A stretch of 63,665 bases of DNA, counting the filler, from Rozella allomycis CSF55 (Eukaryota): the NCBI GenBank assembly GCA_000442015.1. It is 4 parts of 4 records of this genome, joined end to end, with 100 filler letters (N's around TTAATTAATTAA, not from the genome) between each part and the next. Parts side by side here need not be neighbours in the genome. Positions count along the whole stretch, not along the records: positions 1 to 23,034 come from KE560601.1; 3 more parts are not named here. One strand, given 5' to 3'. Made by a program: the position numbers and the translations under genes. The notes below the pieces were generated by a model. It saw nothing but the letters and a program-made list of their open reading frames with translations, was not told the origin of the DNA and made no database searches. Of this stretch, positions 5,445 through 32,966 are shown piece after piece (the stretch's first letter is position 1; the number at the start of each line of letters is the position of its first letter).

Positions 5445-5604
5445 ACATCACTTTTCCTTTGCTACCTTGTTTTTCCTCATTCAAAATTTCAAGACTGCCA
5501 TTAGTGTAAAGCCCAATAGTTAATTTATGATATATCAACTTGTGGTATAAAGAACCTCAATTGAATCACTTAAGAAGTTAATCAGATTTGATCAGATTAT
5601 AAAC

Positions 5605-6000
5605 ATGACCGTTACCAAACCAGGATTTCATGATCATAAACATTTAATCGATCACACAGCACGTGTGAGAGAACGCTTAGAACTCATAAGAAAGGAAATG
5701 AGGGCAAAGGGCGAAGAGTTAAAACACCACCTCGACGAGAGTTTGAGACAGGCAGTGATAAAAGCACAGGAAGCAATTGAACAGCATCGTTTAGCCGCAA
5801 TACAATTAGATCATAGCGAAGAAGCGCATCAAAGAAAAAAGGAATTGGATGATGCTTTGACAAGAGCCTTAGCCGATGAACGTGCTCATGTCGAAGAACA
5901 ACTGAAATTGGCTGAAAAAAGAAGAGAAGAGTATTTGAAGAAACATCATTTCGTTCACAAGTTCCAAAATGAATCCAAAGATCATGTTCAAGTTCAATAA
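5605..6000 (+). CDS. Small charged coiled-coil protein, unknown function
   Basis: 131-aa ORF with ATG, E/K/R/H-rich heptads. Confidence 0.65.
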   Translation: MTVTKPGFHDHKHLIDHTARVRERLELIRKEMRAKGEELKHHLDESLRQAVIKAQEAIEQHRLAAIQLDHSEEAHQRKKELDDALTRALADERAHVEEQLKLAEKRREEYLKKHHFVHKFQNESKDHVQVQ

Positions 6001-6050
6001 ACGCTTCAATGTCGAGATATATTTATTTTGTCACACAAGTGTAAACAAAA

Positions 6051-7945: not shown

Positions 7946-7952
7946 ATCGAAC

Positions 7953-8558
7953 TTAAATGAGTTTTATTAGATTTTGTCTGACAAATTTTTCTATGCGATC
8001 ATGTGATATTGCTAGTATATCTCCACCTGATAACTCAAATGATTCCATATCCGGTCCTCCGTCAATAACAATTGGCATGTTAGGTTCCTCCACAACCTGA
8101 CAAATTACCATCAAGTTGGATCTTGGTTTTCTTAATTGGTGATCTTCTAAATTTGAAAAATGATGAGGTAAATCATTCAGAATTGAAGATTTGTAATACT
8201 GGTCTGTGATCTCAGAAAGAGATTCGATTAATTCTTTTTCTTCTTCGGAAAACCTATCTTCGTACATATGAAAATTTCGTTTGTAGTAGAGAACATGACT
8301 TTCTATTTTCTGAAAACGAAGCCTAACAAAACTTTTCAGCAGATAACGGATTCTTTCTATTTCCATTTCAATCACTAATTCTAATGGGCCGTTCTTCACT
8401 TGCCTGTCGTTTGCTTGTTGTATATCATCGTTCCTTTGCTCCAAATATAACATCATGTTATCGAAACATTCAAAGGGAAAGGTGAGAATTTCAGGAGAAA
8501 ACTTTTCGTTCATATATGCTCTCTTGAACCTTTCATAGTCGTCAACTTCGTCTACCAT
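7953..8558 (-). CDS. SLD5: GINS complex subunit Sld5/GINS4
   Basis: AYMNEKFSPEIL, EMEIERIRYLLKSFVRLRFQKIE motifs. Confidence 0.9.
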   Translation of the reverse strand: MVDEVDDYERFKRAYMNEKFSPEILTFPFECFDNMMLYLEQRNDDIQQANDRQVKNGPLELVIEMEIERIRYLLKSFVRLRFQKIESHVLYYKRNFHMYEDRFSEEEKELIESLSEITDQYYKSSILNDLPHHFSNLEDHQLRKPRSNLMVICQVVEEPNMPIVIDGGPDMESFELSGGDILAISHDRIEKFVRQNLIKLI

Positions 8559-8572
8559 CTGAAATTTCTAAA

Positions 8573-9781
8573 ATGGAGTTTGAGGATGGAATCTCTTTAA
8601 GTATGGAAGAAGATAGAGATAGTAATTTTGATGTAATAATAAGACAGGGCTTTCGTCTTGTAATTTAGAATCACAGTCCAGCATCTTTTACCATGACGAC
8701 TCTGAAAAAAACAACGCACCTGAGAATCCCAAGGAGCCAGAAAGCAAAGAAAATGATCACGGAGTTGAAATAGAAGATGATAATGAAAGTTGTATTTTAG
8801 TCGAAGAAGAAATCCTTGATATAGACAGTGACAACGGAGACGAAAATAAGCCTTCTCAACTCCTTGTAGACGAAAGCGACAATGTTGAAAACAGAGAAAA
8901 TGATGAACAGACAAAAAAACGAGGAAGGCCTCGTTTAAAGAAGAGTAACGCTGTTGACAATTCATCACAGGCAAATCCTAGGCCTGTCCGTGCTGCTAAA
9001 ATTAAATCATATAATAAAGCGGTGTTTGGATATGAAGAGCTTACTCATGATTTCTCATTGGAGGTTCCTATCCAAAGCGCCAATGTAGAGGTTCTTCCTA
9101 TTCCTGTTAAAGAGAAAAAAGTAAAAGAAAACAGGGGAAGTTGGAGAACAGGAATTAATTTTCTTTTTACTGATCCGAGGTCGAAATTGGCTGTCATTAA
9201 TTTGGAGGTACACGATAATGAAAATTCCAAAATAGAAAATATTCAATCATTATGTTTTTGACAACAAGATATCAGACGAAGATAAGCAAAGGTTGCTCGA
9301 TTTACTTCCCGAGGCTGACCTAGTAAATACAGAAAAAGGCAGATTTTTGATGCCCAACTTCTTTTCGCAAAACCATGTTTTTCGGAGTTACTTGACTACA
9401 TTTCAAGAACATTTATATTATGGAAACTTTTTATGTAATGATGAGGAAATCTCCAATTCTAAAAATGATGATGAAGACTTTGAAGAAGGAAAAAGGAAGG
9501 GAAGAAAACGATCAAAATTCCCGGCAACGCCAAAGGTTGAAAATCAAGTGAAAAGAAAGATAAGCGATGAGCTAAAAGATGCCGTAAAGGATATATCATT
9601 ATCCAAGCATTCATTGAAAATGCAAAAAATTTTGAAAATGAGCAAAACAATCAAAATTGTTAAAAGGAAAAAAGAAGAAACATTTAATCGAAGGAGCAGA
9701 TTGTATTCAATGAATTTAAAGAGGAATTTACACTTAGAGGACTGGCAAAAGCAAGTTTTTGAAGATCATGGAATTTATTGA
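8573..9781 (+). CDS. AT-hook plus ASXH/DEUBAD-domain chromatin protein
   Basis: Acidic N-terminus, KKRGRPR AT-hook (~8915-8935), FTDPRSKL...SDEDKQRLLDLLPEAD...FFSQNHVFRSYLTTFQEHLYYG (Asx homology domain); 2 introns; start 8573 or 8603. Confidence 0.7.
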
Positions 9782-9790
9782 ATAAATTCT

Positions 9791-11518
9791 TTACTTTAAA
9801 TTCTTTGTCATAAAATTTAATACATCAAATTGCGAAATGACATGAATTACTTTTTCTGAATCTGTAACAATTAATAATGAACTCTTTTGAAGCAAATCCA
9901 AAGCTTGTCCCACTGAAGTGTCCAAATTTACATTTTCAACCTTTCTCAATTCTTTTCAAATTTTACTTTGAATTCTTCTCTTATTAATTCAACTGAATCA
10001 TTTAATTGGATCTCGCCTTTAAATAGCTTGGATAAAATGAACTTCAGGTTTGCAATTCCCTTCAACTTAAAATCAGTAGTGACTATGACTATTTGGTCTA
10101 TTCCATGTTTCTTCATCAGATTGACTGCATCATTGACGCTAGACTGTTTCAATTAAAATATGGTTGTTACTTTTTCATGCAACGTTATTGCTCGAGGAAG
10201 ATTCATTTCCTTAATCGTAGCATTATTTAAACCATTTAAGTCAATTTTCTCATTCTTCTTTCCTTCAAGAAATCCGTTTTCCAACATCCATTTATCACTA
10301 TATAACAATTGGGTATCAAAGAATACTTTAGAAATTTGGACATGTAATTTCTAACAGAATCAGGCAAAATTACAACAACTCTTTGCCCTTTCTTGAATTT
10401 CTTTGCTATTTTAATTGTGGCAGCCATAGCGGACCCTGAAGATCCTCCTAAAGACAATAGTACTGAAACAGATTACCGCAAAGTAATCCTTCTTCCCTAA
10501 TTATTCTTCTTGCCATGGTGAAGGATTCCATGTCGTTAGTTTTTATCCACTCGTCAATCAAAGGTCTATCTAGAACTTTTGGTATAAAATCGTATCCTAT
10601 TCCCTCCACTTTGTACGATGCAGATGTGGTATTCAATGTATCTGGAACAGCCAAAAGGGAACCATGAGGGTCAACGCCATATATTTTTACATTTGGTATT
10701 CTTTCTCTCAATTTTCTTGCAATTCCTGTTATTGTTCCTCCTGTACCAGCGCCTTATTGAATACATTTTGAAACATATACCTGCGACAATTGCATCGATA
10801 TTGCCGTTGGTTTGCCTCAGAATTTCTTCCGCTGTTGTATCATAATGAGCTATGGGATTATATGGATTAGCATATTGATCTAAAATTATAGAATTGGGTA
10901 TTTCTTGATTCAATCTTTTCGCCACACCAATATGACTTTCAGGTGAATCATATGGGGCTTCAGTTGGAGTCCTAATAATTTCAGCACCCAATGCTTTCAA
11001 AACGTCAACCTAATTCTTCGATAATATCCGTGATACCTTTTCCTGAGACATCTTTTCTGGTAACGTAATGATGACCTTGTATCCTTTAACAGCAGCAGCT
11101 AGACCTAACCCTATCCCTTATAAAGAAAACAAAAACCCAAATTACCTGTATTTCCAGATGTAGGCTCGATAATAGTGAAACCCGGCTTAAGCCGACCGTC
11201 TCTTTCGGCTTCTTCTATCATTCGTTTGCCAATACGATCTTTGACGCTTCCGCCGGCATTAAAATATTCACATTTAGCCACTATAGATTCAATCATAATC
11301 ATCTTACGTATCTCACATTCTATCTTCTCCTTTGCGGGAATACTGTGTAATCGGACAAGAGGTGTGTTTCCAATATAATCCAGAATAGTATTGCATATTT
11401 CAGGCTCGTTTTCACTATAATTAAACTCCATACTCTATGATTACGGCTTCAGATGATGGTGAGGGGACTCACTAATAGATTTATCTATAGACCATGTGCA
11501 AAGATGCTTCTCCGTCAT
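9791..11518 (-). CDS. CBS: Cystathionine beta-synthase with N-terminal heme motif and C-terminal CBS domains
   Basis: [19 protein letters not shown]-lysine motif, [32 protein letters not shown]; 8 GT-AG introns; first exon [22 protein letters not shown]. Confidence 0.95.
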
Positions 11519-11878
11519 TAAATAAATTTCAAAATTAAAATTATAAAAATTAAAATATGAACTGTGTGCTTTATATGAATGTTTGACGTTATGAAATTAA
11601 ATTAACGGGCTTCAAACTGAATAACTAGGTATTACAATAAAAAATTGAATCATACTTCTCTTTGTTCGTTTTTTATACAATATTCTATAACCGCAATGAG
11701 TACATCTCACTGCATCCTACATAATATTTGAGAAATAGAAATACTTTGGCTTTTAGCTCGTTATCAGCCCCACAACCTAAAATATAGATAGATTAATTTT
11801 TTACTTCCGCATAAATATGTTAGCGCTGGCGCTACTTGGTTTATTCTTGTTCCGTCCATCAAAAAGCACCCTGGTTTA

Positions 11879-13175
11879 ATGCAACAACAGTCAGCCACTA
11901 TTCTCAGGGAATTAGTACAAGTTGTTGCTCGCAAACTTTACTCACCGGAACATTGTGTGCTTCTTGATGCTTTGATTCGATTTCAAACGTATTAAATTAT
12001 TTGGTCTCAAAAAAAGACTTAAAGATGAGGATTTAAGCGACTACTTGAAAATAACGCTAAAAGATGTAAATAGAATTGCAGCTAAATTGAAAAATGACAG
12101 GCTTATAAGATCGGATGCGAAACCCGAGTCTAGAGTTGGGGGAAAACCACTTCTTCGAACATTTTACATTCTCGATTACAAACTTTTTGTTGATGTGGTT
12201 AAATATAAAATATCCATGCTACGAAAGCGTATGAACGAAGACATTCAAAATGTAATGAAAAATTTCTACATAGAAAAGGATGTCACTTCAAAAACATATA
12301 AATGCCCTTCATGTGAAATTATTTACTCAATAATGGAGGCGTCTAAAATAATGTTCAAATGTCAAGATTGTGGTTCTATGATGGTTGAGGTTCTTAATTC
12401 TGTTATTCCTGAAGTCACACAAGAGATGAATGCAAAATTTAACGAACAATTTGCAGAAATCATAAGACTTTTGAAGCAAACGGAAGATTTAACTATTGAA
12501 AAGTAAATTTATTTAATTGAATATTTTTTTCAGGTTACATGTGGCGAAGGCAATAGCAGACGCTCAGCAGCGCTCTTTATCATTAAAGGAAAAGGGCCGC
12601 AGTATAACGCATCATTCGAGTAAATAATGTAATTACTACATGAGTATTAGATATAACTGATGTATCTAATAGGGATGTTGGGCACGCATTCGCACCTGTA
12701 GATGTCAGAATAGAGACTGATGACTTAGCTCTACAGCAGCGTACTGCTGAGGAGCAGGAAAGAAAAGCTCAAGAAAACAAGAGACCTGAATGGATGGAAA
12801 TCAGTACTGTCTCTGGGATTGCATTTGACGGCACAAGAGATGAAGACACTAAAAGCAACATTCAAAATGTTCAAAATATAAATATCGAAGATCATGAAAT
12901 TGAAAAATATAAATTATCGGCAGGAATAAAACGAAAACGGGATGATGAGGATCCAAATGACCTTGTAGAACATTTTGACGATGAAGATGACTTTTTTGAA
13001 GAAGATTCACAAAGAGAAACGAATATAGAGTCTGTAATGGTCTCAGGTATAATATTATTTGTTTTGCGTATTATTAGTTCAAGGGCAATTGGTTCCTCTA
13101 GAGGACATAACTGAGGCACACGAAGAGAAAATGACACCAGAAGAATATTCAGAGTATTATAAATTATTTCATTAA
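11879..13175 (+). CDS. TFA1: Transcription factor IIE alpha subunit
   Basis: LVQVVARKLY..LLDALI..LKDEDL winged helix, DYKLFVDVVKYKI, CPSC..CQDC zinc ribbon, C-terminal MTPEEYSEYY; 5 introns. Confidence 0.88.
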
Positions 13176-13329
13176 AAAATTACTATTAACATATATATTA
13201 CATTACATGATCTTCACCCATAACGCCATGATTTATTTTTCTTTACGTGAATATTTAAAGTTTTTAACGTACGTGTATATGATCTTTCTGAAGTTCTAAA
13301 ATCCGATGAGGAATGATATACTTATCTGG

Positions 13330-13825
13330 TCACTCCGTGCAAGCGTAGAGGGATCGGTAGATTAGAACCTGTATCATTTGTTACGACTAAAGGTTTTGTC
13401 TTCCTGAGGGTTTCTTTTATTTGGACTTTTAAATGTATCTGTTGTCTCGCCTTTTACCTCAAGGAAAGGCAGCAGGAAACATTGGAGCTCATCTTAATTT
13501 TGCTGCGATAAAAAGGAAGAGAAATACAGCGAAGAACTTTCAGTGTTAGGAGCAGGGTTTATTCCTCTTATTTTTGATGCCTTAGGGGGTTTCCATGATT
13601 CAGCGGTTTCGTGGGCAAAGAAGGTCGCTTTGCTAAAGTCCATTCGCCGTGGCACTTCATTTTCGATAGAAAAAGAGCACCTGATTGAACGCATTAGTGT
13701 ATCCTTAGCGAAATACCTTGGCTTCATGATTTTGTCAAGAGCCCCTGAACCAACTTAGAAATATTCCTCTGGCTTTACATTCGTCTACTAAATAAAATTT
13801 ATTGTTTTCTTTCTGAAAAAAATAT
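13330..13825 (+). mobile_element. 5'-truncated, degenerate non-LTR retrotransposon 3' end (RLE-type, CRE-like)
   Basis: NVSVVSP ... EKYSE ... FIPLIFDALGGF ... IERISVSLAKYLGFMILSR resembles the C-terminal restriction-like endonuclease tail; frameshifts upstream; AATAAA and short A-tract downstream. Confidence 0.6.
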
Positions 13826-14057
13826 ATCATTGTCGACATTTTTGTGGTTATCCGTTATCCGTGGAGAGGGGGTTACTTGATGTTGACAGCAGTTTGATAA
13901 ATTTATTAAGATTTTTGAAGATGGGAACACCTATTAAGAACTAAAGTTCAACATCATCTGGCGACTGGCATATTGTCGATTTGTATTTAGGATGATGATT
14001 GAGTGATCCTGATGTAACTGTGTTTTTGAAATTGACAAAAATTTATTTAACTTATGC

Positions 14058-15212
14058 TTATGACTTAGTGATAATGGATTCATAAAGTCTTAATAAAACA
14101 CTTTCCTTAATGAGATAAGGTACGTCAAGTATGCCAAGCGGGAACCTAGATCCTTGAAACAATGCGTCGGGTAGATTTGCATGTGAGATCTTTTCTTCGT
14201 TTTCTTTCGTGTCATCTTTTACAAAATATTCATCGGGTTTCGCATTTTTAAGAAGAGTCTTTTCGAGAATATCTTGCATTGACATAAATGGCGCTACATT
14301 CATCCAGAGTGTTTCAGCATTTTCGGCATTCAATGCTTTCTGTGCAGCCATTGTAAATGAATGAAGAAGCATTGACAATCCCTTATGGCGAGCTGGGTTT
14401 TCCAAAAGATTTATAGGGTTGCGGAAAATTCCTCTGTTTTCGTAGTAAGAAAACCCTAGAGTGTCTAAATGATCTTTGCAAACGTTTGTGCTTCTAACAA
14501 CCATGATTAAAGGCTTTAGAGAATCTATATATGATACTGGGATTGGTGAATTCATTTCTCCAAAGTTATATTTTCCCGTAATTGGTTCGCTAGAGATATA
14601 TGCCACATAATCTCCGATAGAAAATACAAAACCAGCTACCCCACCGCCTGCTCCATCCAGAATCTCCCTTGTCTTGCCATTGAACTTTTCGTGCCATTCA
14701 GTTCTTCGACTTGCTTGTATTTCCATGTACTTTGTGGCTTTATTACTTGATATGCCAGAAAAATGGATAAAATTTTGTGCAAATGTAGCGTAGTCATACC
14801 ATGATCCTTTGTCATCGTCTATTTTTTCGAATCCTAAATAAACCGTCCCGGTCGGCAGGTTTGCTTCACCTACAAGGACACCTGATGGAAGCTTTCTAAT
14901 ATTAAATCTGGTAAAATAATCGTCTTCGTCCTTTTCATGAGGCACATATGGAACATTATTTATCTTATGTTCATCTTTTCCTGAGATACCTTCATTTTCA
15001 TTAGAACGGTTCGCTGGATATGAATTACTCTTGTTTTGGTTTTGGCCATTTTTTCTTGAACTGCTTTTCTTTTCAAGATGTTTTTGTTCAGGTGATCCAC
15101 CAAAAGACAAAGTAAATGCCAAGGACAAAACTAAAAGCAAAGTTGAAATGAAAACGATAACGTATTTCTTCTCCATAGCGAAGCTGGGACAGTTGGTGGC
15201 GCTGCCCCGCAT
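14058..15212 (-). CDS. Lineage-specific secreted or signal-anchored protein
   Basis: 384-aa intronless ORF, N-terminal hydrophobic segment (YVIVFISTLLLVLSLAFTLSF); true start possibly at MEKKY. Confidence 0.7.
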   Translation of the reverse strand: MRGSATNCPSFAMEKKYVIVFISTLLLVLSLAFTLSFGGSPEQKHLEKKSSSRKNGQNQNKSNSYPANRSNENEGISGKDEHKINNVPYVPHEKDEDDYFTRFNIRKLPSGVLVGEANLPTGTVYLGFEKIDDDKGSWYDYATFAQNFIHFSGISSNKATKYMEIQASRRTEWHEKFNGKTREILDGAGGGVAGFVFSIGDYVAYISSEPITGKYNFGEMNSPIPVSYIDSLKPLIMVVRSTNVCKDHLDTLGFSYYENRGIFRNPINLLENPARHKGLSMLLHSFTMAAQKALNAENAETLWMNVAPFMSMQDILEKTLLKNAKPDEYFVKDDTKENEEKISHANLPDALFQGSRFPLGILDVPYLIKESVLLRLYESIITKS

Positions 15213-15603
15213 AATTATAGAAAGGTATTTTTATCTAACGTATAAATATAGTAAGTAGACCATACCTTGATAATATTCTGAGCATGTTTCGAAAATAGCG
15301 CTAAAGCAAATTCGGGACGTCCCATGAATACGAGCAATATTGACAGAAAATTGAGAAAAATGAATTTACACTTTGCAAAATAGTCTCGTAGTCTGAAGAT
15401 ATTTTCATAAATATTTTATGTAATGCATAGTGATCTTCAAGAATTGATTTATGCACGAAGGATGATTGATCATAGCCGGCGCCGCTAAATTTTGATGTAT
15501 CACAATCACTAAAAAATCCAATTCCATTATTCTAGGTAAATTTTTTATTAATAAACTCCAAGTAAAATTAATAAAGTATTTCTAGCTTTATCAAGCTAAA
15601 AAA

Positions 15604-15628
15604 TGGAGTTGGAGGGTATCGATCCCTC

Positions 15629-15660
<32 letters not shown>

Positions 15661-15676
15661 TCTGAGCTACAACCCC
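15604..15676 (-). tRNA. tRNA-Ala(AGC)
   Basis: GGGGTTGTAGCTCAGATGGTAGAGCGCGCGCTTAGCATGCGCGAGGTAGAGGGATCGATACCCTCCAACTCCA; cloverleaf, G3:U70, T-run terminator. Confidence 0.97.
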
Positions 15677-15771
15677 TATGTAAGCGCTCACAAATATACT
15701 TATGTAAATTTATTCGTTTGTAATTTTCATAAACCGAGAAATTATCTTCTCCAAGTAAATCATTTTGAAAT

Positions 15772-17563
15772 ATGAGGCAATACTCAACATTCCTGGCGAA
15801 TAGTCATTTTAGCAAAACAATTCCCAAAACAAAGCTCTTTCTGAACGGCGAGTTTGTTGACTCGAAGGCTACCCATTGGTTCCCTGTTCGAAATCCAGTA
15901 CTCATGTCTATTAATATTCACATATTAGGCTACCCAAGAAATTGTTAGTTTGACCCCTCAATGCACAAATGAGGAGCTTTTAGAGTCCTCTCGAATCTCG
16001 CAACTTGCTTGTCGCGAATGGAGGAAAACGACTATTCTAACAAGACAAAGAAAAATGTTGGATCTGCAACATTTAATTAGAAATTCTATCGTATAACGCA
16101 CTTAATTGTCTGATAGGATGACATAGCGAAGTCTATTGTTCAAGAGATGGGGAAAACACTGAGTGATGCCAAGGGAGATGTTCTTCGGGGCCTGCGTAAA
16201 TATGTTCAATTTTAGTCACAGAGGTTGTCGAACATGCATGTAATATCACCTCATTGCAAATGGGAGAAACTCTCGAAAATGTATCTTCTCATATGGATAC
16301 CTATACAATTAGGCAGCCTCTAGGAGTAACAGCAGGTATAAAGATTTAGATTAATATTAAAGGCATCTGCCCTTTCAATTTCCCTGCAATGATACCATTG
16401 TGGATGTTCCCTTTATCTATCGCATGTGGAAACACAATGATAATAAAACCATCAGAAAGAGATCCTGGGGCAATGATGATATTAGCCAAACTAGCGAATG
16501 AAGTAGGTATCCCTAAAGGGGTTCTCAATGTTGTCCATGGAGGCAAAGAGACTGTCGAATTTCTCTGCAAAGATAAAAATATAAAGTCCATATCTTTTGT
16601 TGGATCAGATAATGCTGGAAAATACATACACTCCACTGGAACATCTTATGGCAAAAGAGTCCAAGTAAATCGTTTTATTAATTACAATTTGGCCAACATG
16701 GGAGCAAAAAATCATGGAGTGGTCATGCCAGACGCCAACAAAAACGATGCTTTAAATGGTCTTGTTGGCGCTGCATTTGGCGCTGCTGGACAAAGGTGTA
16801 TGGCATTAAGTACTGCCATATTTGTTGGTGAAGCTAAAAACTGGTAAGTCTCTTGTTCTGAAAAATTTGAGGATTCCTGAGTTAGTAGAGCGAGCAAAGA
16901 AATTGAATGTAAATGAAGGGAATGTAGAAGGTGCTGATCTTGGACCAATGATTTCCCCAGAGGCAATAAAGTTGTAAATTAATTATAGGCTAAAACACGT
17001 GCGTGCAATCTGGTTCAATCTGCAGTTGATGAAGGTGCTTCATTACTGTTAGACGGTCGAAAGATTAAGGTAACATTTAACTCGGTCTATAAACAAGGTT
17101 GTCGGGTATGAAAATGGGAACTTTATGGGACCCACTATATTATCAAATGTGAAAGTCTCCATGAAAGCTTACAAGGAAGAAATATTTGCGCCAGTTTTGC
17201 TCTGCATTGAGGTTCCGAACTTGGATGATGCAATTGAACTCATAAATAGAAACCCATATGGGAATGGAACAGCCATATTTACTCAATCAGGTGCGATAGC
17301 GAGAAAATTTCAGACTGAGATCGACGTAGGCCAAGTATAATATAATGTGAATCTTTATGTAGGTGGGTATAAACGTCCCAATTCCTGTCCCTCTCCCTAT
17401 GTTCTCATTTACTGGTTCAAGAGGCTCTATCTGTGGTGATATTAATTTTTATGGAAAATCTGGAGTAAATTTTTATACTCAAATTAAGACAATTACAAGT
17501 CAATGGAAGGTTGAGGATTCCTCCCATACAAAATCGGCCTTGCACATGCCTGTTATGAAATAA
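15772..17563 (+). CDS. ALDH6A1: Methylmalonate-semialdehyde dehydrogenase
   Basis: [65 protein letters not shown]; 9 small introns incl. one GC-AG and one probable GT-TG. Confidence 0.97.
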
Positions 17564-17656
17564 AAATATTCTTTTTGCTTAAACAATTGGACTATTATTT
17601 AAAATGCATCAAATCATTAATTTTACAATCAATTTATAAATTTCGAATTATCTAGA

Positions 17657-20126
17657 ATGTCGCTACGAAGGAAACCAGTAGACTTTGATGCAGTTTGGGG
17701 TATTTTCGAAAAGAATATAACCAAGTTATTTGAATCCAGTGAAGAAGGAACAGTCCAGGCCATGGACCTTACACAGTATTTGAGTATAAGCACGTTAATA
17801 GAATGGTGTATGAAATGTGTAACGCATATCCAAACTCTTTTTTCTCAGAGTTGAAGAACAAGATTTCGAATTTTCTTTCAGCACAGGCTATCAAGCAAAG
17901 AAAAGTAATAATGATTGCAATACCTACAATGCAAGGCTATAATGAAAGATGTGGATATGATCAAAAAGTATTCAAACGAGTGGGATGTGTATTATAATGC
18001 ATTGTGTTTGTTAAATACTGTGTGTTCGTATTTGAACAGGTGCATTTTGATGAAAAAGGAATCAGATGGGGCAGGATCAAGTGGGCCAGATTTCTATACT
18101 ATAGATATTGTAAACCAATTATGTTCGTATTAGTAGATTGGAAAGAATATATGGAGGGAAAATGTCATTTTATGGATTAAAAGAAACTTTTCAAACAAGT
18201 TGGTGTCGCTTTTACTGTCGTACATTGAAGATGATCGAAGTTCTGGATTTAAAGATAGCAAGCATGCAAATTGTGCTATTAATTCATTTGGTAATCAGCG
18301 ATGAAGTTTTTAAAGTAGTTTTGAGTGATAATGATCCTTTGAACTCTATTAGATTTTACATTGATGAATTTGAGAATTTGATGCTTCAAGAAACTGAAAA
18401 GTATTATAAAAGCGAAGGTAAGACTAATATAACAAATATGAATATTGAATCATTTATGGATGTTGTAAATTGAATTTTTGTGATGGAATTAGGCTTTGAG
18501 AAGATTGGCAGAGGAAAAGGAACGAGCAAATCGATATTTTAAGTTTTCATTTGACAAAGTTGTAGAAGTTTATATTGATCAAGTTATTATTACGAATCAA
18601 AAGTTTATTCAAGAAGAATTTCAGAAATTTGTCGCTAATGATTCGTTTATAGAAATGGAAAAGGCTTATAATTTGTTAGTTCTTGTGAATGAAGGGATTA
18701 ATCCCTTGTTGATTAAATTAAAAGATCATATAGTTAAACTGGGAAGAGAAATCCTGGGAGGGCTTGGCGATGTGGTTATTAAAGATGCTAAACCATTTAT
18801 TACAGCAATGTTAAACTTGCATAATAAATATGATTATCTTGTTTCGCAACATTTTAATAAAGATACCAATTTTGAAACAATATTAGACAAGGTAAACTAC
18901 TTGACAATATTTAATAGGCATTCAGAGAAATAATTAATGACAGAAAAACTAACAAATTTATAAATGCGCCAGAGAATTTAGCTCGCTTTTGCGATACCAT
19001 TTTAAAGAGGAATTCTAAAGTTTCTCTGACAGAGGCGGAAATTGAAGAAAATTTGAGCAACGTGGTAAATTAAATCCTTCAGTATAATATTTGATTATAA
19101 TATTTAAATATGTGGATGACAAGGATGTATTTTCGCAATTTTATTCAAAATTTTTTGGAAAGAGACTAATTCAAAAGAGTTCTGTTTCAATGGAATGTGA
19201 AGTTGGCATGATAACAAAATTAAAAGTATTCAGATTACTAAATTTAGTAAAGGATGTTTGTGGATTCGAATATGTTTCCAAATTACAGAGAATGTATACA
19301 GATATAACAGTTAGTGAGACAATGCACGAAAAATTTCTTCAAAATTACAAATCCTCTCTTTCAAGTAATCTCAATTCTAATCTATTTTAGATGATTTTGA
19401 GTTTGCTATATTAACCGCAGGATCATGGCCAAGCGCATATCAAAACAATCAAGAGTTTATCCCTCCCTTTGAACTTGGCCAATGCATTAAACAATTCCAT
19501 GATTTCTATGAAAAAGAACACAGCGGTCGAAAGTTAACTTGGCTTTACAATCAATCTAGATGTGATTTAAAATTGACTGGGTTTGATAAACGCTACGAAC
19601 TACAAGTCTCAGTCTTTCAATCTTCAATATTACTAACACTAAACAAAGAAGGAAAGATACAATTACATCAAATAGCCGAAGAAACAAAACTCCCTATTCA
19701 CGAAATCAAAAGGAATATCAAACCTTTATTAGAATTAGGAATTATTCTAGAGAACGAAAATAATCAAGAAATTTCAATAAACGACAACTTTTCCCACAAA
19801 AGAGTAAAAATCAAGGTTCCTTCTATTGCCATCAATGAACCAAATGAAAAGGAAAGAGATTCGGTCAAAAAAGCTGTCGAAGATGACAGAAAAATGTACA
19901 TACAAGTAATAACTTATAACTGATAAAATAGGCTTCCATTGTTAGGATCGCTAAAGCAAAAAAGGAAATATCACACAATGACCTTGTTCAAGAAATTATA
20001 TCGCACGCAAAACCCCAGTTTTTACCCTCCATTGCGTTAATCAAATCTATGATTGAACATTTGATTGAAAAACAATTTCTTGAAAGGCATCCGTCAGAAA
20101 AAGGAAAATACATTTATGTCGCCTAA
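17657..20126 (+). CDS. CUL2: Cullin-2
   Basis: N-terminus MSLRRKPVDFDAVW and VYEMCNAYP resemble CUL2 (MSLKPRVVDFDETW, VYALCVAYP); FKYVDDKDVF, SGRKLTWL, IVRIAK neddylation site, ends YIYVA; 10 introns. Confidence 0.85.
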
Positions 20127-20263
20127 ATTAATAAATTCTTCAATTTTTAAATTAAACGTATTTGAATTTTGAAGTTTTCAAATTAATGTCATTCAACAAC
20201 AATTAGCTTTCGGTACACTATCTGTTTCATTTTGTAACAATCGTAGAGGCAATATTAGGAACA

Positions 20264-20336
20264 GGGGTTGTAGCTCATTTGGTAGAGCGCGCGCTTCGCA
20301 TGCGTGAGGCACGGGGTTCGATTCCCCGCAACTCCA
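20264..20336 (+). tRNA. tRNA-Ala(CGC)
   Basis: GGGGTTGTAGCTCATTTGGTAGAGCGCGCGCTTCGCATGCGTGAGGCACGGGGTTCGATTCCCCGCAACTCCA followed by poly-T. Confidence 0.97.
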
Positions 20337-20610
20337 TTTTTTTTTACATTTTTCTAAACGACCCAAAAAATCTTTATTATGTGAACGAATGAAATCATTC
20401 CTCAATCAAGAGGCCATTTATTTCATCGTTCGAACCTTCCCAATCTTCTTTGATCAAGTTTCAACCCTCTTTGAAGTCTTCTTTTTGTTCATTAAAAAAA
20501 TTAGCGCATATAATTCAAAGTTTTAATGACCGCAGTAATTCATTAAATCAACGAGAATATTTAAATGTAAAGTGGCAATGAAGAAAGTACTAATCTCTAA
20601 AAATACAGTT

Positions 20611-22270
20611 CTATTTATTAACAGTCATTTTTAACATTCCAGTTTTCTCCAATTTAGCCATCAAATCAAGCAACTTCTCTTCTTCCATTTTCCTCTCTTC
20701 ATCAGTCAAACCTTCTAACGGATCTTCTTTCACAGTTGCTTTTATTGTTCCAGATATGGCATCATATGCTTTAACTTTTCCCGTTTTGTCCTCTTCTAAA
20801 ATGACTTCTTCGTCAGGTGACAAATCTCCTGAAAAACTATATGGCTTTTGAGTTTCAGACATTAATCCATTTTCCATTAAGAATCCAGCCGCGTTGCCAA
20901 AACCAACGTGAAAGTTCATTCGATTTACTTTCTCAAATGTACATAATGGTTACCATTCTTTTTACATAATGTATATATTAGGCCACCGGCGTTGGTTTTT
21001 ACAACGTCTTGTATAGACGAGAGGCCGCGAACAATTAATGCTTTCAAACTATCACCTACATGTAAAGGGATATCTCGATTTCTTTTTTTTAGTAAATTGA
21101 CTTTACATTTTGGACGGCAGCACTTCTCTTCGTATCTGCTTTCTTAATGTATAATCAGTATCACATAAAGCAGAAAGAACAGAACAGCAAACTGAGATTG
21201 ATTGCATGGCGCTTTCATTAGGGAAAAATGATGTTACATATCAATAGAGTTTTCCAAATTGACCAGTTGTAAATGTAGAAAGTTTAGCAGTAAACAAATT
21301 CTTAAGTATTTAATCTTTGGGAATTTCTGCAGTAAAGAATGGCCATTGAAATATTGTAGCTGGTAGTTTACGTGGCGAGATTGGTAATTCAATGATAAAA
21401 TCTAAAATTGTCTGGACTGGAATGTTCATTAATAAATTTGATAAATGCACAACAGTTGATAAACAAATTGATGGGGTATTTCCATTACTACCGCGTTCAA
21501 ATATTGCCAATGAATTGAAGATCATTTCCAATAGTCTTAAATTTTACTACACCTAATAAATACTCTGAAGAAGCTTCAATTTTAGTGACTCTAGAAAGTG
21601 TGAAAATAGTTTTGCAAACTTCCTCGATTTCTGATTAGATAATATATTTTCCTTTGAATGTTTTATTAATATCTTTAACGTAACACAGTATTTATTACTA
21701 TTTACTTGTAACATTTGTTCCTTTAATTCTTTTTCCTCTTCATATGAAAGGTGTTCGCTCATCAGTCCGGTGGCAACGAAGATCAATTTTAACTAAAATA
21801 TTGACACATTGTTCTTTGCACAGCTGTTCTGGCAAATATATTCAATGGAAATTACTTTAAGACCTTTAAGTAGAGATTTTAGACCACCGATTTCAATAAA
21901 ATTTGTGCGGCATTGTTCGCTTAAATAGATCATGTTGTATAATGCCTTGTAGGATTCTTCTATTGTGAGATCGTTCATTTCTGTTTCTCTAGCGATGACT
22001 TTAATAATAATATCAATTGTCTAGATAAATGCATTAAATTTGAAACACCTTAATTTCATAAAACGGCTCACAACCATCGATTTCTCTTGCCAAAATTTTA
22101 ATGGATTGAAAGCATCTTTTTGAAACTAGAACTAAAAAAATTAACGGATACCATTTTCATCTCCTTGTTTCAGTAATTGCACAATATTGCCACACCCCTC
22201 TTCACATTTGGGGTAAAGTGTTCGTCTAAAAGGTTTGAAATCCTTTCCCAAGTTAAGATGAACACTCTTA
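20611..22270 (-). CDS. RIC8: Ric-8/synembryn G-alpha chaperone/GEF (5' end at N; apparent frame problems near 21630 and 21790)
   Basis: HVGFGNAAGFL, YDAISG, LTDEERKMEEEKLLDLMAKLEKTG C-terminal signatures; IKILARE near N-terminus. Confidence 0.8.
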
Positions 22271-22403
22271 NAAGAAGATATTACATTAAAAGGAAGACGA
22301 AAAAAGGCCAGAAAAGCATTGGAAATGGATGAATAAATGATTATTATTTATTAAAATTGTATCGTTATTAATAGATTGTTGTGTTACCTCAGTGTTTTAA
22401 AGA

Positions 22404-22525
22404 AGGGTGATATCCTTACAAAATATAGGGTGACATCCTGACAATGGGGTGCGATGACCCGACAAAATGCTCTCTTTACGTGTAGGGTGACGAGCCACCA
22501 AATGAGGGTGACATCCTTACATCCA
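22404..22525. repeat. Array of short GGGTGACATCCT(T/G)ACA-like motifs; probable DNA-transposon subterminal repeats
   Basis: agggtgatatccttaca, agggtgacatcctgaca, agggtgacgagccacc, agggtgacatccttaca within ~120 bp. Confidence 0.55.
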
Positions 22526-23034
22526 TCCAATCCGAGAAAAGCCTTGATCTACATGTGCAAGACAAGGTAAAACAGATGCATTAGCATTCAAGCAGCGAGG
22601 ATGACTAGAACGTGAGGCATTCATTACAGCAGGNAAAATATCTATGAAGCCATACTTAACTTAAAAATAATTCCACCGAGCTGAATTTTTATGATTGATT
22701 TGCGGTGCTACCAAGCAAAGAATTGCTGGCCTAGAGTCAGAAGTAAAGGATTTGGAGGGTAGAATAAACAACTATAAAGAGGAAAATATTGTGGAACAGT
22801 ATTGTTTATTAATGATTTTTAGTTTAGCACGAACGTGTCAAGGAAAAGGAGGAACTACTAAGTACTAGTGAGATTGATTCTCTTAAAAGCATGCGATTAG
22901 ATTTTTGTGATTTAACAAGTGCGAAAATGAAGGATTTATAATAAACTGGGTTAAAATAGTTTATTTTTTTTAACTTTGCGCTGTCATTTGCTTCAATGGA
23001 ATAAAAATGATAATCTTTCCAGAGTCTTGAATAT

Positions 23035-27275: not shown

Positions 27276-30200
27276 CAGTAAGTTTGTGTGTATGGGTTTA
27301 GAGGCCAGTGTGAGTGTATACATGGTTGGAATGTTTTGAGTTCGCCGTTCGTGGAAGATGAATACATGTTTATTATGGAGCGGAGCTATATTTCTTTTAA
27401 TTTGGAGAATCGGCTTGGAACGAGGCCGTTTTTGGAGAAGATTGAAAAGAAATGGATTCTGTTTCAGTTATTGAAAGCTGTGTCTTCGCTGCACAATAAG
27501 AATGTAATTATTGCTTTTGTGTGATATTAGATTGTGCATGGAGATATCAAGAGTGAAAATGTATTGATTTCTACGGGCGGATGGGCGTACTTGTCTGATA
27601 TAGGAAACTACAAGCCTACATTTCTTCCTGAAGTATGACAGAAATCAATTAAATGAAATAGAATAATCCATCTGATTTTTATTTGTTTTTTGATGCTTCG
27701 GAGAAAAGGTCGTGTTGTATTGCCCCTGAAAGGTTTTTCAACCCATCTTCGCATAAGGAATCTGCGGCGTATGGATTTGATTTGAAAAAGGCGATGGATA
27801 TTTTCTCGTTGGGGTAATTTTATTGTTTAGGGTTAAATTGATGTGTAGCTGCGCATTTATTTTTGGAGGAGCCGTTGTTTACGCTGTCTAGTTTGTCAAA
27901 GTATTATTCTGGTGAGATTGATGTATCAGAGAGACTTAATAAAATAGAGGACGAGGGTGTTACAGTATGAGATTGAATATTCAAAGATAGAAAATGATTT
28001 TGAATATGATTGATCCATTTCCTGAAAACAGACTTTTGATTGATGAATATTTTGAGGTTTNTTTGGGGTAATTTTATTGTTTAGGGTTAAACTGATGTGT
28101 AGCTGCTCATTTATTTTTGGAGGAGCGGTTGTTTACGCTGTCTAGTTTGTCAAAGTATTATTCTGGTGAGATTGACATAACAGAGAGACTGAATAAAATA
28201 GAAGATGAGGATGTTACAGTATGAGATTGAATATTGAAAGATAGAAAATGATTTTGAATATGACTGATCCATTTCCTGAAAACAGACTTTTGATTGATGA
28301 ATATTTTGAGGTTTTTAATTCAATTTTTCCAGATTATTTTTATAATTTTTCTTTTGAGTACATTGGATCTTTAATTGCGTCGAAAACAGTAGAAACTTTG
28401 GATGAGAAAATTCACAAAATATTTAACGATTTTGATAAAATTTTATGCTCTTTAAATATTTCTATTGATGATGTTAAAGTTGAATGCTATGAAATTGAAA
28501 TTCCAAATGTTAAAATACCACGAAAACGTCAATTGAAGTCTGATGGAGTGTTAATCTTTTTGAATGTTATTTTTTCGTTTCTTCCATTGTTGAATAACTT
28601 GGATACAATTGAAAAAGCTGCTGAGATTATTTTTGTGCTTGGATTGTTAGCGAGGGATGAAATAATCCTTGAAAGAATCGTTCGTTATCTGGTTTTGATT
28701 TGTAACCACACGAATNTCAACGATTTTGATAAAATATTATGCTCTTTAAATATTTCTATAGATGATGTTCAAGTAGAATACTATGAAATTGAAATTCCAA
28801 ATGTTAAAATACCTCGAAAGCGTCAATTGAAGTCTGATGGAGTGTTAATCTTTTTGAATGTTATTTTTTCGTTTCTTCCATTGTTAAATAACTTGGATGC
28901 AATAGAAAAAGCTGCTGAGATTATTTTTGTGCTCGGATTGTTTGCGAGGGATGAAATAGTCCTTGAAAGAATCGTTCGTTATCTGGTTTTGATTTGTAAC
29001 CACACGAATGAATCTTATTTGATATCCAACTGTGTTTATTATATAACATGTTTAATGGAAAGTATTGAGAATGTTCCAAAGTTTGAAGTTGACTTATTTT
29101 TGGAATATTTGTTTCCCGCCCTTTCTCATCTAGTTTCCCATCCAGATCAATCAGTGAGATTCTGCATGGCCAAACATTTACCCTCTTTAATTAAAGTTGC
29201 AGAGAAATTTTTAAATATTAGTGATGAAATAAACAGTTCAGTTAGTAGCAACAGATTTTCTCAGTCAGATTTGTTTTCAGATGATTTTAGCATTAATCGC
29301 CCATTTGATTCTGGTGTTGGACATTTAAGACAGCAAGTTGAAGAGATGATTCAATTGCTTGTTGTTGACAATGATGTTAACGTTAAAATTAAAGTTGTTG
29401 AATCGCTTGGATTTTATTTCAACTTTTTCACGAATCAAAAGACTAGAGACACTATAATTTCACATGTTATAACGTTTTTAAATGAACGGAAATGGGAATT
29501 GAGAAGCGCTGTGATATTCTCATTGAAAGATGTTGCAAACTTTGTTGGTCAATCAACATTTGAACAAATATTTTTGCCTGTAATTCTACAAGGGTTATTG
29601 GGTAATAAGATTGAATGAAATGAATAGATGAGGAAGAGTGTGTGATAATAACAACAATTAAAACTTTGTCTCATCTTTCAACTAGTTTGAAACCTTTGGT
29701 GTTTAAGAAATTCATCAATAAAGTAACACCCTTGTTGGTTCATCCTGATTTTGAATTAAGAAATTGTAAAATTCAAATTTAAACATTAAAATTAGCTGCG
29801 ATTGAATTTATTTTAAATTTGTATGAAAATTGTGATTCAATATTCAAACTTTGCTTGGTTATTCCTTGTTTAGATTTATATTTATCAAAACCTTTAATCA
29901 AGATAAATTTTGAATTAATTCATGAATTTTTAATTCCACCAGTAGAAATTTAATTGATTTCATTCATTAAAGATTCCAACTGAACTTTACAATTATGCAG
30001 CTCAATGGTATTTGAAATCTAAAGATTTGTTCTTGATGGATGATGAATCAGAAGAATACAGGCGAATGATCACAATGGGAATGACGCCCCTGCAAGAGAA
30101 ATTTCTTCTCTTGTTGAAACCTTTTTATAGAAAGCCTTCATCACTAAGTTTAGAAACTGGATTTATTTCACTTGATCCTAAAGACATTAAATCGTTTGAC

Positions 30201-32160: not shown

Positions 32161-32966
32161 ATGCAATTAATAGACGACGAAAGTTTGCAGAGCGCTATTT
32201 CATTCCTTAATAATTGTAATGACGAGCTGGATTGGGGTGAAGATAGTGTTCCGTTGCTATTCTTGGGTAAGCTACTATATTTTGGCCATTGATAGACACT
32301 GTGAATAGGGAAGTTCTAGGCCAGTTTCCGCATGAAATGTTTACCAGCTGGGACATTATCATCGATTCTCCCAAACCACTTGAGACAATCAAACGTATAC
32401 TAAAAGAGGGTGCAAGTGGGGAGGAGGAAAAGGTAATAGAATATCATATGTACATATATGAATATCATCAAAGAAATTCAAACTTGGAAAAGCTTTCCTA
32501 AAACTGTTACAGCAGATATTGTTCGAAATGTTATTGATAAATACCCTAAAATCGCCGCGGAACTTATACTAAAAGCAGTACAATCGGAAAGGGCTCCTGA
32601 ATTTTACAATCTTTTGATAAATCTTGATATTAGTCTTCATTCCTTGGACATGATGAAGCAATTGCTATTCAAACGCAGTATATATGTCCCTATTGAAACT
32701 GCGTCGCTCTATTTAACCAATGGTATGGACTTCATAAGGTTAATAGCGGAAGAATCGAAACAGCACCGTTCTGTAAGATTGGTAATATTTATAATCTAAT
32801 TAATTTGATGATGTGCTTATTTCTTAAATCGGTTTTACCCGAATTCAATGAAATATTGCAGGACATATTTTTGGAATTGGAAACATTCGCTCTTGAATTC
32901 TCTAGAGTTAAAGAGGCGGCCGAAATATTTCAATATATAAGTTTGAAAAAGAACCAAATAAAATAG
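32161..32966 (+). CDS. CNOT11: CCR4-NOT subunit 11
   Basis: LINLDISLHSLDMM, LYLTN, QHRSVRL-MCLFLKS, ELETFALEFSRVKEAAEIF match the NOT11 C-terminal domain; 3 introns (two probable GT-TG). Confidence 0.85.

What the first reader, a model, noticed from the sequence alone, without database searches (positions are those of the whole stretch)
19065..19093. CUL2 intron skips an internal CAG and ends at TTG
AAC GTG|gtaaattaaatccttcagtataatatttg|ATT ATA ATA TTT AAA TAT GTG GAT GAC AAG gives NV-IIIFKYVDDKDVF. The CAG 18 nt from the donor gives TAT AAT ATT TGA, and the upstream GC donor also gives a stop. A good AG appears to be ignored, probably because it is too close, in favour of TG at 29 nt, supporting length-based acceptor choice.
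Basis: seen in the sequence. Interest (0 to 1): 0.8.

Follow-up and report, generated by a model that had tools for sequence, protein, structure and literature searches.

The report
Short cullin intron ending in TG
In a cullin gene of the fungal parasite Rozella allomycis, a 29-base intron can give the conserved protein only if it ends in TG instead of the near-universal AG, and other genes nearby show the same oddity, though no RNA data were available to confirm it.

Summary
The window is Rozella allomycis CSF55. Exon 18918-19064 ends at Pfam Cullin profile position 388. The frame beginning ATT at 19094 starts at position 389. The 29 bases between (19065-19093) begin GTAAAT and end TTG.

No AG or AC acceptor can reach the conserved FKYVDDKDVF frame: 0 of 150 frame-preserving donor/acceptor pairs. 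The CAG at 18 nt gives TGA from the GT donor and TAA from the upstream GC donor.

Both deposited protein models use a 59-nt GT-AG intron instead. That deletes ten conserved residues and costs 38 bits against a homologue profile.

In my own gene models, 90 of 91 introns in well-scoring genes are 25-32 nt. The only outlier is that 59-nt model.

Two more genes in the window need GT...TG introns of normal length by homology: CNOT11 (29 nt) and Vps15 (27 nt, present in two roughly 5% diverged copies). A fourth candidate could not be verified.

A neighbouring GC-AG 26-nt intron bypasses an embedded GTAAAT donor only 15 nt from its AG.

My best reading is that TG serves as the productive 3' splice site where no AG lies 25-32 nt from the donor. 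No RNA evidence could be obtained. I class it as a new variant of the known rare GT-TG introns.

The parts
17657..20126 (+). Cullin gene (Cullin-2-like); my model has 11 exons, 10 introns and 731 aa
   Evidence: Model built. The exon translation is 99% identical to Rozella allomycis RKP18268.1, which clusters with EPZ36309.1. Pfam PF00888 hits. Best solved relatives are Cullin-2 chains.
18918..19064 (+). Exon 7, ending ...LSNV
   Evidence: Residues 1-49 align to Cullin profile positions 342-388.
19065..19093 (+). The finding: a 29-nt intron with 5' GTAAAT and 3' TTG (GT...TG)
   Evidence: This join scores 105.0 bits against the 9-homologue profile, the best of 6 alternatives tested.
19080..19082 (+). 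Internal CAG, 18 nt from the GT donor; not usable productively
   Evidence: From the GT donor it gives TGA. In the FKY frame it is followed at once by TAA at 19085-87.
19057..19082 (+). Rival 26-nt GC-AG intron (GCAACG...CCTTCAG); correct frame but reads ATA TAA and adds one residue
   Evidence: It scores 97.0 bits with the stop read as X.
19092..19093 (+). TG, the inferred 3' terminal dinucleotide (T at -3, A at +1)
   Evidence: It is the only TG, and G19093 the only G, between 25 and 32 nt from the donor.
19094..19123 (+). Ten codons IIIFKYVDDK, which both deposited models treat as intron
   Evidence: They match Pfam positions 389-398. They are absent from P0001 and P0011. They align to ITVFKYIDDK of solved Cullin-2.
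19065..19123 (+). The 59-nt GT-AG intron used by the deposited models
   Evidence: It scores 67.0 bits against 105.0 for the 29-nt join. It is the only length outlier among 91 modelled introns.
19226..19252 (+). Intron 8, 27 nt, in frame with no stop; it skips a TAG at 22 nt and ends AAG. The deposited models retain it as VFRLLNLVK.
   Evidence: Spliced it scores 91.3 bits; retained it scores 77.0 bits.
16963..16988 (+). GC-AG 26-nt intron of the neighbouring methylmalonate-semialdehyde dehydrogenase gene; it holds an unused GTAAAT donor 15 nt from its AG
   Evidence: The upstream exon ends at residue 328 of chain 8xxq_A and the downstream exon starts at residue 329. Intron found.
27814..27840 (+). 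Vps15-like kinase: 27-nt GT...TTG intron; internal TAG at 17 nt, next AG at 35 nt is out of frame
   Evidence: The join DIFSLG|CVAAHLF is colinear with homologue P0013 and scores 68.6 bits, the best of 5 joins tested. The deposited model P0012 stops at ...DIFSLG.
28068..28094 (+). Second, roughly 5% diverged copy of the Vps15 intron after the N at 28061; it ends CTG
32782..32810 (+). CNOT11 gene: 29-nt GT...ATG intron (a 26-nt form ending TTG is also possible); no AG until 80 nt
   Evidence: Pfam PF10155: the upstream exon ends at profile position 81 and the downstream frame starts at 81. Against a 12-homologue profile the 29-nt join scores 99.2 bits, 26 nt 93.0, and the 80-nt GT-AG form 68.9.
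32433..32460 (+). Unverified fourth candidate, 28-nt GT...TG, in CNOT11
   Evidence: It has the only TG in the 25-32 nt range and that TG is in the required frame. Homology does not reach this junction.

Best explanation
Bases 19065-19093 are an ordinary-looking, species-typical ultrashort spliceosomal intron. It has a GTAAAT donor, is 29 nt long and is AT-rich. Its productive 3' end is TG rather than AG.

In this organism introns appear confined to about 25-32 nt. An AG closer to the donor, such as the CAG at 18 nt, cannot serve as the acceptor. The normal acceptor is the first AG ending at or beyond about 25 nt. Here no AG lies in that range. The only G in it, in TTG|A at 29 nt, is used for exon ligation. 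This joins ...LSNV to IIIFKYVDDKDVF... and gives a complete 731-residue Cullin-2-like protein.

Shown: the DNA sequence, the exact colinearity with the cullin family, the absence of any AG solution, the narrow intron length range in my models, and the recurrence of TG-ended introns in two other genes.

Inferred: that the mRNA is really joined there, and that distance from the donor or branch, rather than the AG, sets the cut.
For: - Pfam Cullin profile positions 388|389 meet exactly at V19064|I19094.
- A profile of 9 homologues scores the 29-nt join at 105.0 bits. The other five alternatives score 99.6, 98.9, 98.0 and 97.0, with 67.0 for the deposited 59-nt intron. All 9 homologues have the same spacing here.
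- Solved Cullin-2 chains align from the first I onwards.
- 0 of 150 frame-preserving donor/acceptor pairs end in AG or AC.
- In my gene models 90 of 91 introns in genes scoring 30 or more are 25-32 nt, and 89 of 90 start GTA.
- 48 of 90 contain skipped internal AGs. In 89 of 90 the used AG is the first one ending at 25 nt or beyond.
- The three length outliers of the AG-only models are 59 nt (cullin), 78 nt (Vps15) and 43 nt (CNOT11). Each is replaced by a GT...TG solution of 27-29 nt.
- CNOT11 and Vps15 junctions placed by homology also end in TG. The Vps15 one is kept in two copies about 5% apart.
- TG has a frequency of 0.062 in the window, so three out of three by chance is about 2e-4.
- The MMSDH GC-AG intron shows the same length logic on the donor side.
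- -3 T and +1 A match the context reported for human TG acceptors (PMC2374985, section 12 read).
Against: - There is no RNA evidence of any kind.
- The intron set comes from my own simple gene finder, which used a length prior of 24-33 nt. With a flat prior only 58 of 92 introns fell at 26-31 nt and the rest were scattered noise.
- A well-formed GC-AG 26-nt intron with a pyrimidine run before its CAG overlaps the site. It is the same kind of intron as the verified MMSDH one, so it may compete or even dominate.
- In 12 of 90 canonical introns a TG at 24 nt or beyond is passed over. In MMSDH a GT...TG pairing of 28 nt exists but is not the productive one, so length alone does not predict the choice.
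- In human, TG was never the sole acceptor, and AG>TG mutants activate neighbouring AGs (PMC2374985).
- The assembly is a draft with N joins, although none lies within 3 kb of the site.
- The Vps15 check rests on a single homologue.
Confidence: 0.65

Rival explanations
1. The spliceosome uses the GC donor at 19057 with the CAG at 19082 (26 nt). This gives an mRNA with an in-frame TAA. The gene would be mostly or wholly spliced unproductively, either as a decaying gene or as a form of down-regulation.
For: The length of 26 nt is among the commonest in the window (22 of 90, against 23 of 90 at 27 nt). The 3' region looks canonical (TCCTTCAG). A GC-AG 26-nt intron with an embedded unused GTAAAT is verified 2.1 kb upstream. 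The frame after splicing is the correct one.
Against: It gives a TAA stop at 19085-87, adds one residue, and loses the family-conserved NV. It scores 97.0 against 105.0 bits. The GC site lacks G at -1 and carries C and G at +5/+6, bases seen in only 9 and 11 of 90 donors. The rest of the 731-codon frame is intact across 10 introns, which argues for a productive product.
Confidence: 0.12
2. The deposited models are right. A 59-nt GT-AG intron (19065-19123) is removed and the protein simply lacks ten residues.
For: It has canonical ends and is in frame. Both public annotations chose it, and my AG-only gene finder did too.
Against: It deletes Pfam positions 389-398 and costs 38 bits. The ten codons still match the family consensus and solved Cullin-2, which is not expected of intron sequence. 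It is the single length outlier among 91 introns. The same deposited models also retain a probable intron.
Confidence: 0.08
3. The TTG is a base-call or assembly error, or a private mutation of the sequenced culture. The true intron would be a canonical 29-nt GT-AG ending TAG.
For: One base (T19092 to A) would make it canonical. The assembly is a draft with single Ns and duplicated overlaps.
Against: The nearest N is more than 3 kb away. Two or three further TG-ended introns lie in the same 64 kb, one of them in two diverged copies that both keep TG. That is far more than random substitution errors at splice sites would give. This comparison with error rates is my inference.
Confidence: 0.08
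4. The intron starts at the same GT donor but ends at another non-AG position in the same frame: 26 nt ending AT, 23 nt ending AA, or 32 nt ending TT.
For: All are stop-free and in frame. 26 nt is among the commonest lengths (22 of 90).
Against: Each introduces an insertion or deletion relative to all 9 homologues and scores 5-7 bits lower. None keeps the terminal G. The other homology-placed cases end in TG.
Confidence: 0.05

Closest known systems
TG 3' splice sites of human U2-type introns (Szafranski et al. 2007, PMC2374985; GNAS, TSPYL2 and ARS2 examples in PMC4176328 and PMC1557818)
   Same: Ordinary GT donor and a terminal TG. There is a pyrimidine at -3 and a purine at +1. An AG lies nearby: here the CAG 11 nt upstream, within the 28-nt TG-AG distance limit reported for human.
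   Different: In human, TG is only ever an alternative to a nearby AG and never the sole acceptor, and 36 genes were found genome-wide. Here TG would be the only productive acceptor. The intron is 29 nt. Three to four of about 120 modelled introns in one 64-kb window show it.
Miniature introns of microsporidia, the sister lineage (PMC6349667, passages read)
   Same: Comparable size class. That paper notes two putative introns of about 30 nt in the R. allomycis S23 gene that lack the conserved E. cuniculi 5' splice site and branch-point motifs. This agrees with my finding no fixed branch motif here (59 of 90 introns lack YTRAY).
   Different: The passages I read do not mention non-AG 3' ends. 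Those introns carry conserved donor and branch motifs, and short ones are poorly spliced.
GC-AG introns, including the neighbour at 16963-16988
   Same: A non-consensus splice-site dinucleotide is accepted when it gives an intron of the permitted length, while a better-looking site that lies too close is bypassed.
   Different: The deviation is at the donor, and GC-AG is a well-accepted class. Here the deviation is at the acceptor.
U12-type introns, which tolerate varied 3' dinucleotides (PMC1557818 Table 2 lists one mouse GT-TG). That they place the 3' cut by distance from the branch site is my recollection, not checked here.
   Same: A non-AG end, and a TCCTTCAG stretch whose A lies 12 nt from the 3' end.
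   Different: The donor GTAAAT does not resemble the U12 donor (recalled as [AG]TATCCTT). The other two TG introns have no TCCTT element.

Membership tests
U2-type spliceosomal intron of this species | 5' end GTA(A/T) | tested here: met
   The donor is GTAAAT. 89 of 90 modelled introns start GTA, and position 4 is A in 62 and T in 23.
U2-type spliceosomal intron of this species | Length within the species range | tested here: met
   29 nt. 90 of 91 modelled introns are 25-32 nt. A length prior was used; the flat-prior run is noisier.
U2-type spliceosomal intron of this species | 3' terminal AG | tested here: not met
   It ends TTG. There is no AG between 19083 and 19121.
U2-type spliceosomal intron of this species | Removal restores a frame colinear with homologues, and retention breaks it | tested here: met
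   Pfam positions 388|389 are contiguous. Read-through hits TAA after two further codons (GTA AAT), at 19071-73.
U2-type spliceosomal intron of this species | Spliced junction present in RNA | not testable with these tools
   No RNA holder was listed. The one run laid gave no cover of the gene.
GT-TG introns (Szafranski 2007 class) | U2-like donor, terminal TG, Y at -3, R at +1 | tested here: met
   GTAAAT...TTG|A. The criteria come from PMC2374985 section 12.
GT-TG introns (Szafranski 2007 class) | Tandem AG acceptor within 28 nt | tested here: met
   A CAG ends 11 nt upstream. The next downstream AG ends 30 nt away.
GT-TG introns (Szafranski 2007 class) | TG used only as an alternative to that AG | not testable with these tools
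   Needs RNA. By sequence, the AG partners give a stop or a ten-residue deletion.
U12-type intron | Donor [AG]TATCCTT (consensus recalled, not from a call) | tested here: not met
   The donor is GTAAATTA.
U12-type intron | Branch element TCCTTRAY 10-15 nt from the 3' end (recalled) | tested here: inconclusive
   TCCTTCAG has its A 12 nt from the end but two mismatches. The element is absent from the other TG introns.
Cullin family (PF00888) | Match to the Cullin profile and to solved cullins | tested here: met
   Single exons score 29.3 and 55.6 bits. 36 distinct solved cullin sequences matched, with Cullin-2 best. The deposited whole proteins carry PF00888 and PF10557.

The most novel reading that the evidence does not exclude
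Rozella allomycis splices a few percent of its 25-32-nt introns at TG as the sole, constitutive 3' site. Three verified-by-homology cases and one candidate occur among about 120 modelled introns in this window. The acceptor would be set mainly by a distance ruler from the donor or branch, with only the terminal G required. That would be an AG-independent second step in an otherwise U2-type system. It would also mean that public gene models for this genome are systematically wrong at such sites.
Probability: 0.5. Interest if true: 0.75.

Novelty: new variant of a known kind. Interest (0 to 1): 0.6.

Why it matters
The terminal AG is among the most fixed rules of U2-type splicing. In human, TG acceptors are reported only as alternatives next to an AG.

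An organism in which TG is the only productive acceptor of several ultrashort introns would be a natural system for a long-standing question. How is the 3' cut site chosen: by sequence, by distance from the branch, or by an early AG-recognition step?

The practical consequences are immediate. Both public models of this cullin drop ten conserved residues and retain an intron. The public single-cell Vps15 model is truncated at its TG intron. My AG-only models split CNOT11 in two at its TG intron. Annotation pipelines that insist on AG therefore damage genes in this genome, which is widely used as the sister group of microsporidia.

Tried and rejected
**RNA evidence**
- No RNA holder was listed for 17600-20200.
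- The single metatranscriptome offered gave only four 18-22-base chance matches on 3100-23030 and no cover of the gene.

**Sources that were not available**
- No whole genome is held for this window.
- James et al. 2013, the genome paper, is not held, so I cannot say whether it mentions splice sites.
- Supplementary files of papers were not opened.

**Relatives**
- A metagenome scan with the deposited protein found nothing.
- A second scan with an alignment gave 80 loci, all 37% identity or less to the query. Most are 2-4 kb contigs carrying the whole protein, which I took to be transcript-like. They were no help on intron conservation and I did not analyse them further.
- The search for homologous proteins found no CNOT11 relative. 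The representative search replaced it.

**My own analyses that did not help**
- The flat-length-prior gene finder and an enumeration of ORF-bridging introns were too noisy to give an unbiased length distribution.
- Gene-finder non-AG hits at 28773 and 61857 are artefacts of duplicated overlaps around single Ns.
- Low-scoring hits on the wrong strand of real genes were dropped.
- Allowing other dinucleotides in the gene finder does not single out TG, because any dinucleotide in the same frame serves it equally. Only homology placement does.

**Ideas rejected by reasoning from the sequence**
- A ciliate-type genetic code, or two +1 frameshifts at AAT-TAA-A and ATT-TAA-A. TAA ends both this gene and its neighbour, the organism is Rozella, and the product would carry extra residues against a gap-free family alignment.
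- The 13-nt direct repeat TATAATATTT(GAT/AAA) as a recent duplication. Removing either copy gives no canonical solution.
- A U12-type intron. The donor does not fit.

**Literature searches**
- Searches for Rozella together with intron, splice site, spliceosome or short introns found no paper describing non-AG sites in Rozella.
- A search on ultrashort-intron terms found nothing.
Full report
**What the window is.** A 171-residue exon translation (19393-19905) is 99% identical to a 731-residue protein of Rozella allomycis CSF55. Its cluster holds RKP18268.1 and EPZ36309.1. The contig length recorded for EPZ36309.1, 23034, equals the distance to the window's first N run at 23035. The window is a draft scaffold with four pairs of 44-N runs and nine single Ns. 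None lies within 3 kb of the finding. No whole genome is held.

**The observation.** I built a model of the whole gene.
- It runs from the ATG at 17657 to the stop at 20124-26.
- It has ten introns of 26, 31, 27, 28, 28, 26, 29, 27, 26 and 26 nt.
- The product is 731 residues.
- Nine introns are GT-AG. The seventh (19065-19093) begins GTAAAT and ends TTG.

The CAG at 19080-82 gives TGA from this donor. With the upstream GC donor (19057) it makes a 26-nt intron in the right frame, but that reads ATA TAA. I enumerated all GT/GC/AT donors in exon 7 against all acceptor positions up to 19103. 150 pairs keep an open frame into FKYVDDKDVF, and 0 of the 150 end in AG or AC. G19093 is the only G between 19083 and 19111.

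**Is the junction real at the protein level?** Three independent references place it at the same point.
- Pfam aligns exon 7 (residues 1-49) to Cullin profile positions 342-388. It aligns the downstream frame, from the I at 19094, to positions 389-432.
- A profile I built from nine homologues (P0002-P0010) scores the alternatives as follows:

| Join | Bits |
|---|---|
| 29 nt, GT...TG (reader) | 105.0 |
| 26 nt, ending AT | 99.6 |
| 32 nt, ending TT | 98.9 |
| 23 nt, ending AA | 98.0 |
| GC-AG 26 nt, stop read as X | 97.0 |
| 59 nt, GT-AG (deposited) | 67.0 |

- All nine homologues have identical spacing in this stretch.
- 36 distinct solved cullin sequences match, with human Cullin-2 best. 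Its ITVFKYIDDKDVF aligns to IIIFKYVDDKDVF from the first I.

**The deposited models.** Both read ...EENLSNVDVFSQFY.... They therefore remove 19065-19123 as a 59-nt GT-AG intron and lose Pfam positions 389-398. They also retain intron 8 (19226-19252) in frame as VFRLLNLVK. Against the homologue profile the spliced form scores 91.3 bits and the retained form 77.0. The choice at intron 4 (25 or 28 nt) is undecidable, at 39.4 against 39.0 bits.

**Window-wide context.** I wrote a simple Viterbi gene finder. It uses codon log-odds trained on the window, GT or GC donors, and a mild preference for introns of 24-33 nt.
- The AG-only parse gives 119 introns.
- In genes scoring 30 or more there are 91 introns. 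90 are 25-32 nt and the single outlier is the 59-nt cullin model.
- Of those 90, 89 start GTA.
- 48 of the 90 contain internal AGs, ending at positions 4-25.
- 59 of the 90 have no YTRAY branch-like motif.
- In 89 of 90 the used AG is the first one ending at or beyond 25 nt.
- In 12 of 90 a TG at 24 nt or beyond is passed over in favour of the AG.

The caveat is that the length prior shapes these numbers. With a flat prior the weak coding signal produced many spurious long or short introns, and only 58 of 92 fell at 26-31 nt. PMC6349667 (passages read) independently remarks on two putative introns of about 30 nt in the R. allomycis S23 gene that lack the conserved E. cuniculi motifs.

**A mirror case on the donor side.** In the neighbouring methylmalonate-semialdehyde dehydrogenase gene, the exon ending at 16962 aligns to residues 299-328 of chain 8xxq_A. 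The exon starting at 16989 aligns to residues 329-355. The intron is therefore 16963-16988, GC-AG, 26 nt. Inside it lies a GTAAAT only 15 nt from the AG, and this donor is not the productive one. A better-looking site that is too close is bypassed in favour of one that gives the permitted length.

**More TG-ended introns.**

(a) CNOT11.
- The exon 32476-32781 ends at PF10155 profile position 81, and the downstream frame starts at 81 with the M at 32808.
- Against a profile of 12 homologues, the 29-nt GT...ATG join scores 99.2 bits and the 26-nt GT...TTG join scores 93.0.
- The only AG solution, 80 nt, scores 68.9. Read-through scores 57.7.

(b) Vps15-like kinase.
- The upstream exon ends ...DIFSLG.
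- An in-frame TGA at 27839-41 pins the acceptor.
- The 27-nt GT...TTG join gives DIFSLGCVAAHLF, colinear with the one homologue found (P0013, MDIFSLGCVLFEIF). It scores 68.6 bits. The other four joins score 60.5, 59.7, 58.5 and 47.8.
- The next AG, at 35 nt, is out of frame.
- The public single-cell model P0012 simply stops at ...DIFSLG.
- A second copy of this stretch follows the N at 28061. It has 12 differences in about 250 nt, many of them synonymous, and still ends CTG at the same place. A random base-call error is therefore unlikely there.

(c) An unverified candidate. 32433-32460 (28 nt) carries the only TG in its 25-32 nt range, and that TG is in the required frame. Homology does not reach this junction.

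None of these introns has an AG ending between 25 and 34 nt. The three length outliers of the AG-only parse (59, 78 and 43 nt) and the CNOT11 gene split are all resolved by GT...TG introns of 27-29 nt. TG frequency in the window is 0.062, so three homology-placed junctions all ending TG by chance is about 2e-4. This figure is somewhat generous, because neighbouring in-frame positions in CNOT11 and Vps15 are also TG.

**Mechanism.** This part is inferred. Introns here seem confined to about 25-32 nt. The acceptor is normally the first AG in that range. Where none exists, a TG in the range appears to serve, which keeps the terminal G.

Human work shows that TG can be chosen at a late step, but only beside an AG within 28 nt and never as the sole site (PMC2374985; outline, abstract and section 12 read). 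In the cullin and Vps15 introns an AG lies 10-11 nt upstream of the TG and might play that early role. CNOT11 has none.

Length alone is not a sufficient rule. TGs are skipped when an AG follows in range. MMSDH uses GC-AG although a GT...TG pairing of 28 nt exists. In Vps15 an AG at 35 nt is not the productive site.

**Rivals.**
- The strongest is the GC-AG 26-nt intron at 19057-19082. It is well formed, in the correct frame and analogous to the MMSDH intron. But it yields TAA, adds a residue, removes the conserved NV, and has a weaker donor context.
- The deposited 59-nt intron is in frame but deletes conserved sequence and is a length outlier.
- A single-base error (TAG read as TTG) cannot be excluded for this site alone. 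It does not explain the recurrence.
- U12-type splicing, altered genetic codes and frameshifting were considered and rejected (see Tried and rejected).

**Known or new.** GT-TG introns are documented as rare events in human and mouse (PMC4176328 and PMC1557818, passages read; PMC2374985). Four searches for Rozella with intron, splice site, spliceosome or short introns turned up no paper on non-AG sites in Rozella. The genome paper itself is not held. I therefore class this as a new variant of a known kind, pending RNA confirmation.

**Verdict.** My best estimate is 0.65 that TG at 19092-93 is the productive acceptor. Interest is 0.6.

Noticed in passing
window 32782-32810 and 32433-32460: The CNOT11 gene needs a 29-nt (or 26-nt) GT...TG intron to join its last exon, by both the Pfam and the homologue profile. 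A second 28-nt GT...TG candidate lies upstream. AG-only modelling splits the gene in two.
   Followed up: yes
window 27814-27840 and 28068-28094: The Vps15-like kinase needs a 27-nt GT...TTG intron. The public single-cell model is truncated there. A roughly 5% diverged duplicate of about 250 nt follows the single N at 28061 and keeps the TG (as CTG).
   Followed up: yes
window 16963-16988: A GC-AG 26-nt intron in the methylmalonate-semialdehyde dehydrogenase gene contains an unused GTAAAT donor 15 nt from the AG. The junction is colinear with solved chain 8xxq_A at residues 328|329.
   Followed up: yes
window 19226-19252: A 27-nt in-frame, stop-free intron of the cullin gene is kept as coding (VFRLLNLVK) in both deposited models. 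The homologue profile favours splicing by 14 bits. It skips a TAG at 22 nt and ends AAG.
   Followed up: yes
window 61816, 28061, 28716 (single Ns): At the three single Ns I examined, the N marks a contig join where the overlap was left duplicated: about 30 nt exact at 61816 inside the dynein gene, and about 250 nt at 5% divergence at 28061. These create false frameshifts and false 'non-AG introns' in gene models. The diverged overlap suggests two haplotypes or alleles in the sequenced material.
   Followed up: partly
window 49485-61666, minus strand: A very large dynein heavy chain gene with few introns (Pfam Dynein_C, AAA_lid_11, Dynein_heavy) accounts for the strongly negative GC skew from 52 to 62 kb.
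   Followed up: partly
window 15604-15676 (-), 20264-20336 (+), 36653-36726 (-): Three tRNA genes (Ala-AGC, Ala-CGC, Val-TAC) lie in short intergenic spaces. The Ala-CGC gene sits 138 nt after the cullin stop codon. Rfam found nothing else at gathering score.
   Followed up: no
window 19083-19108: A 13-nt imperfect direct repeat, TATAATATTT(GAT/AAA), spans the 3' end of the finding's intron and the start of exon 8. Both copies can encode Ile-Ile-Phe in different frames. Removing either copy gives no canonical splice solution, and its origin is unexplained.
   Followed up: partly
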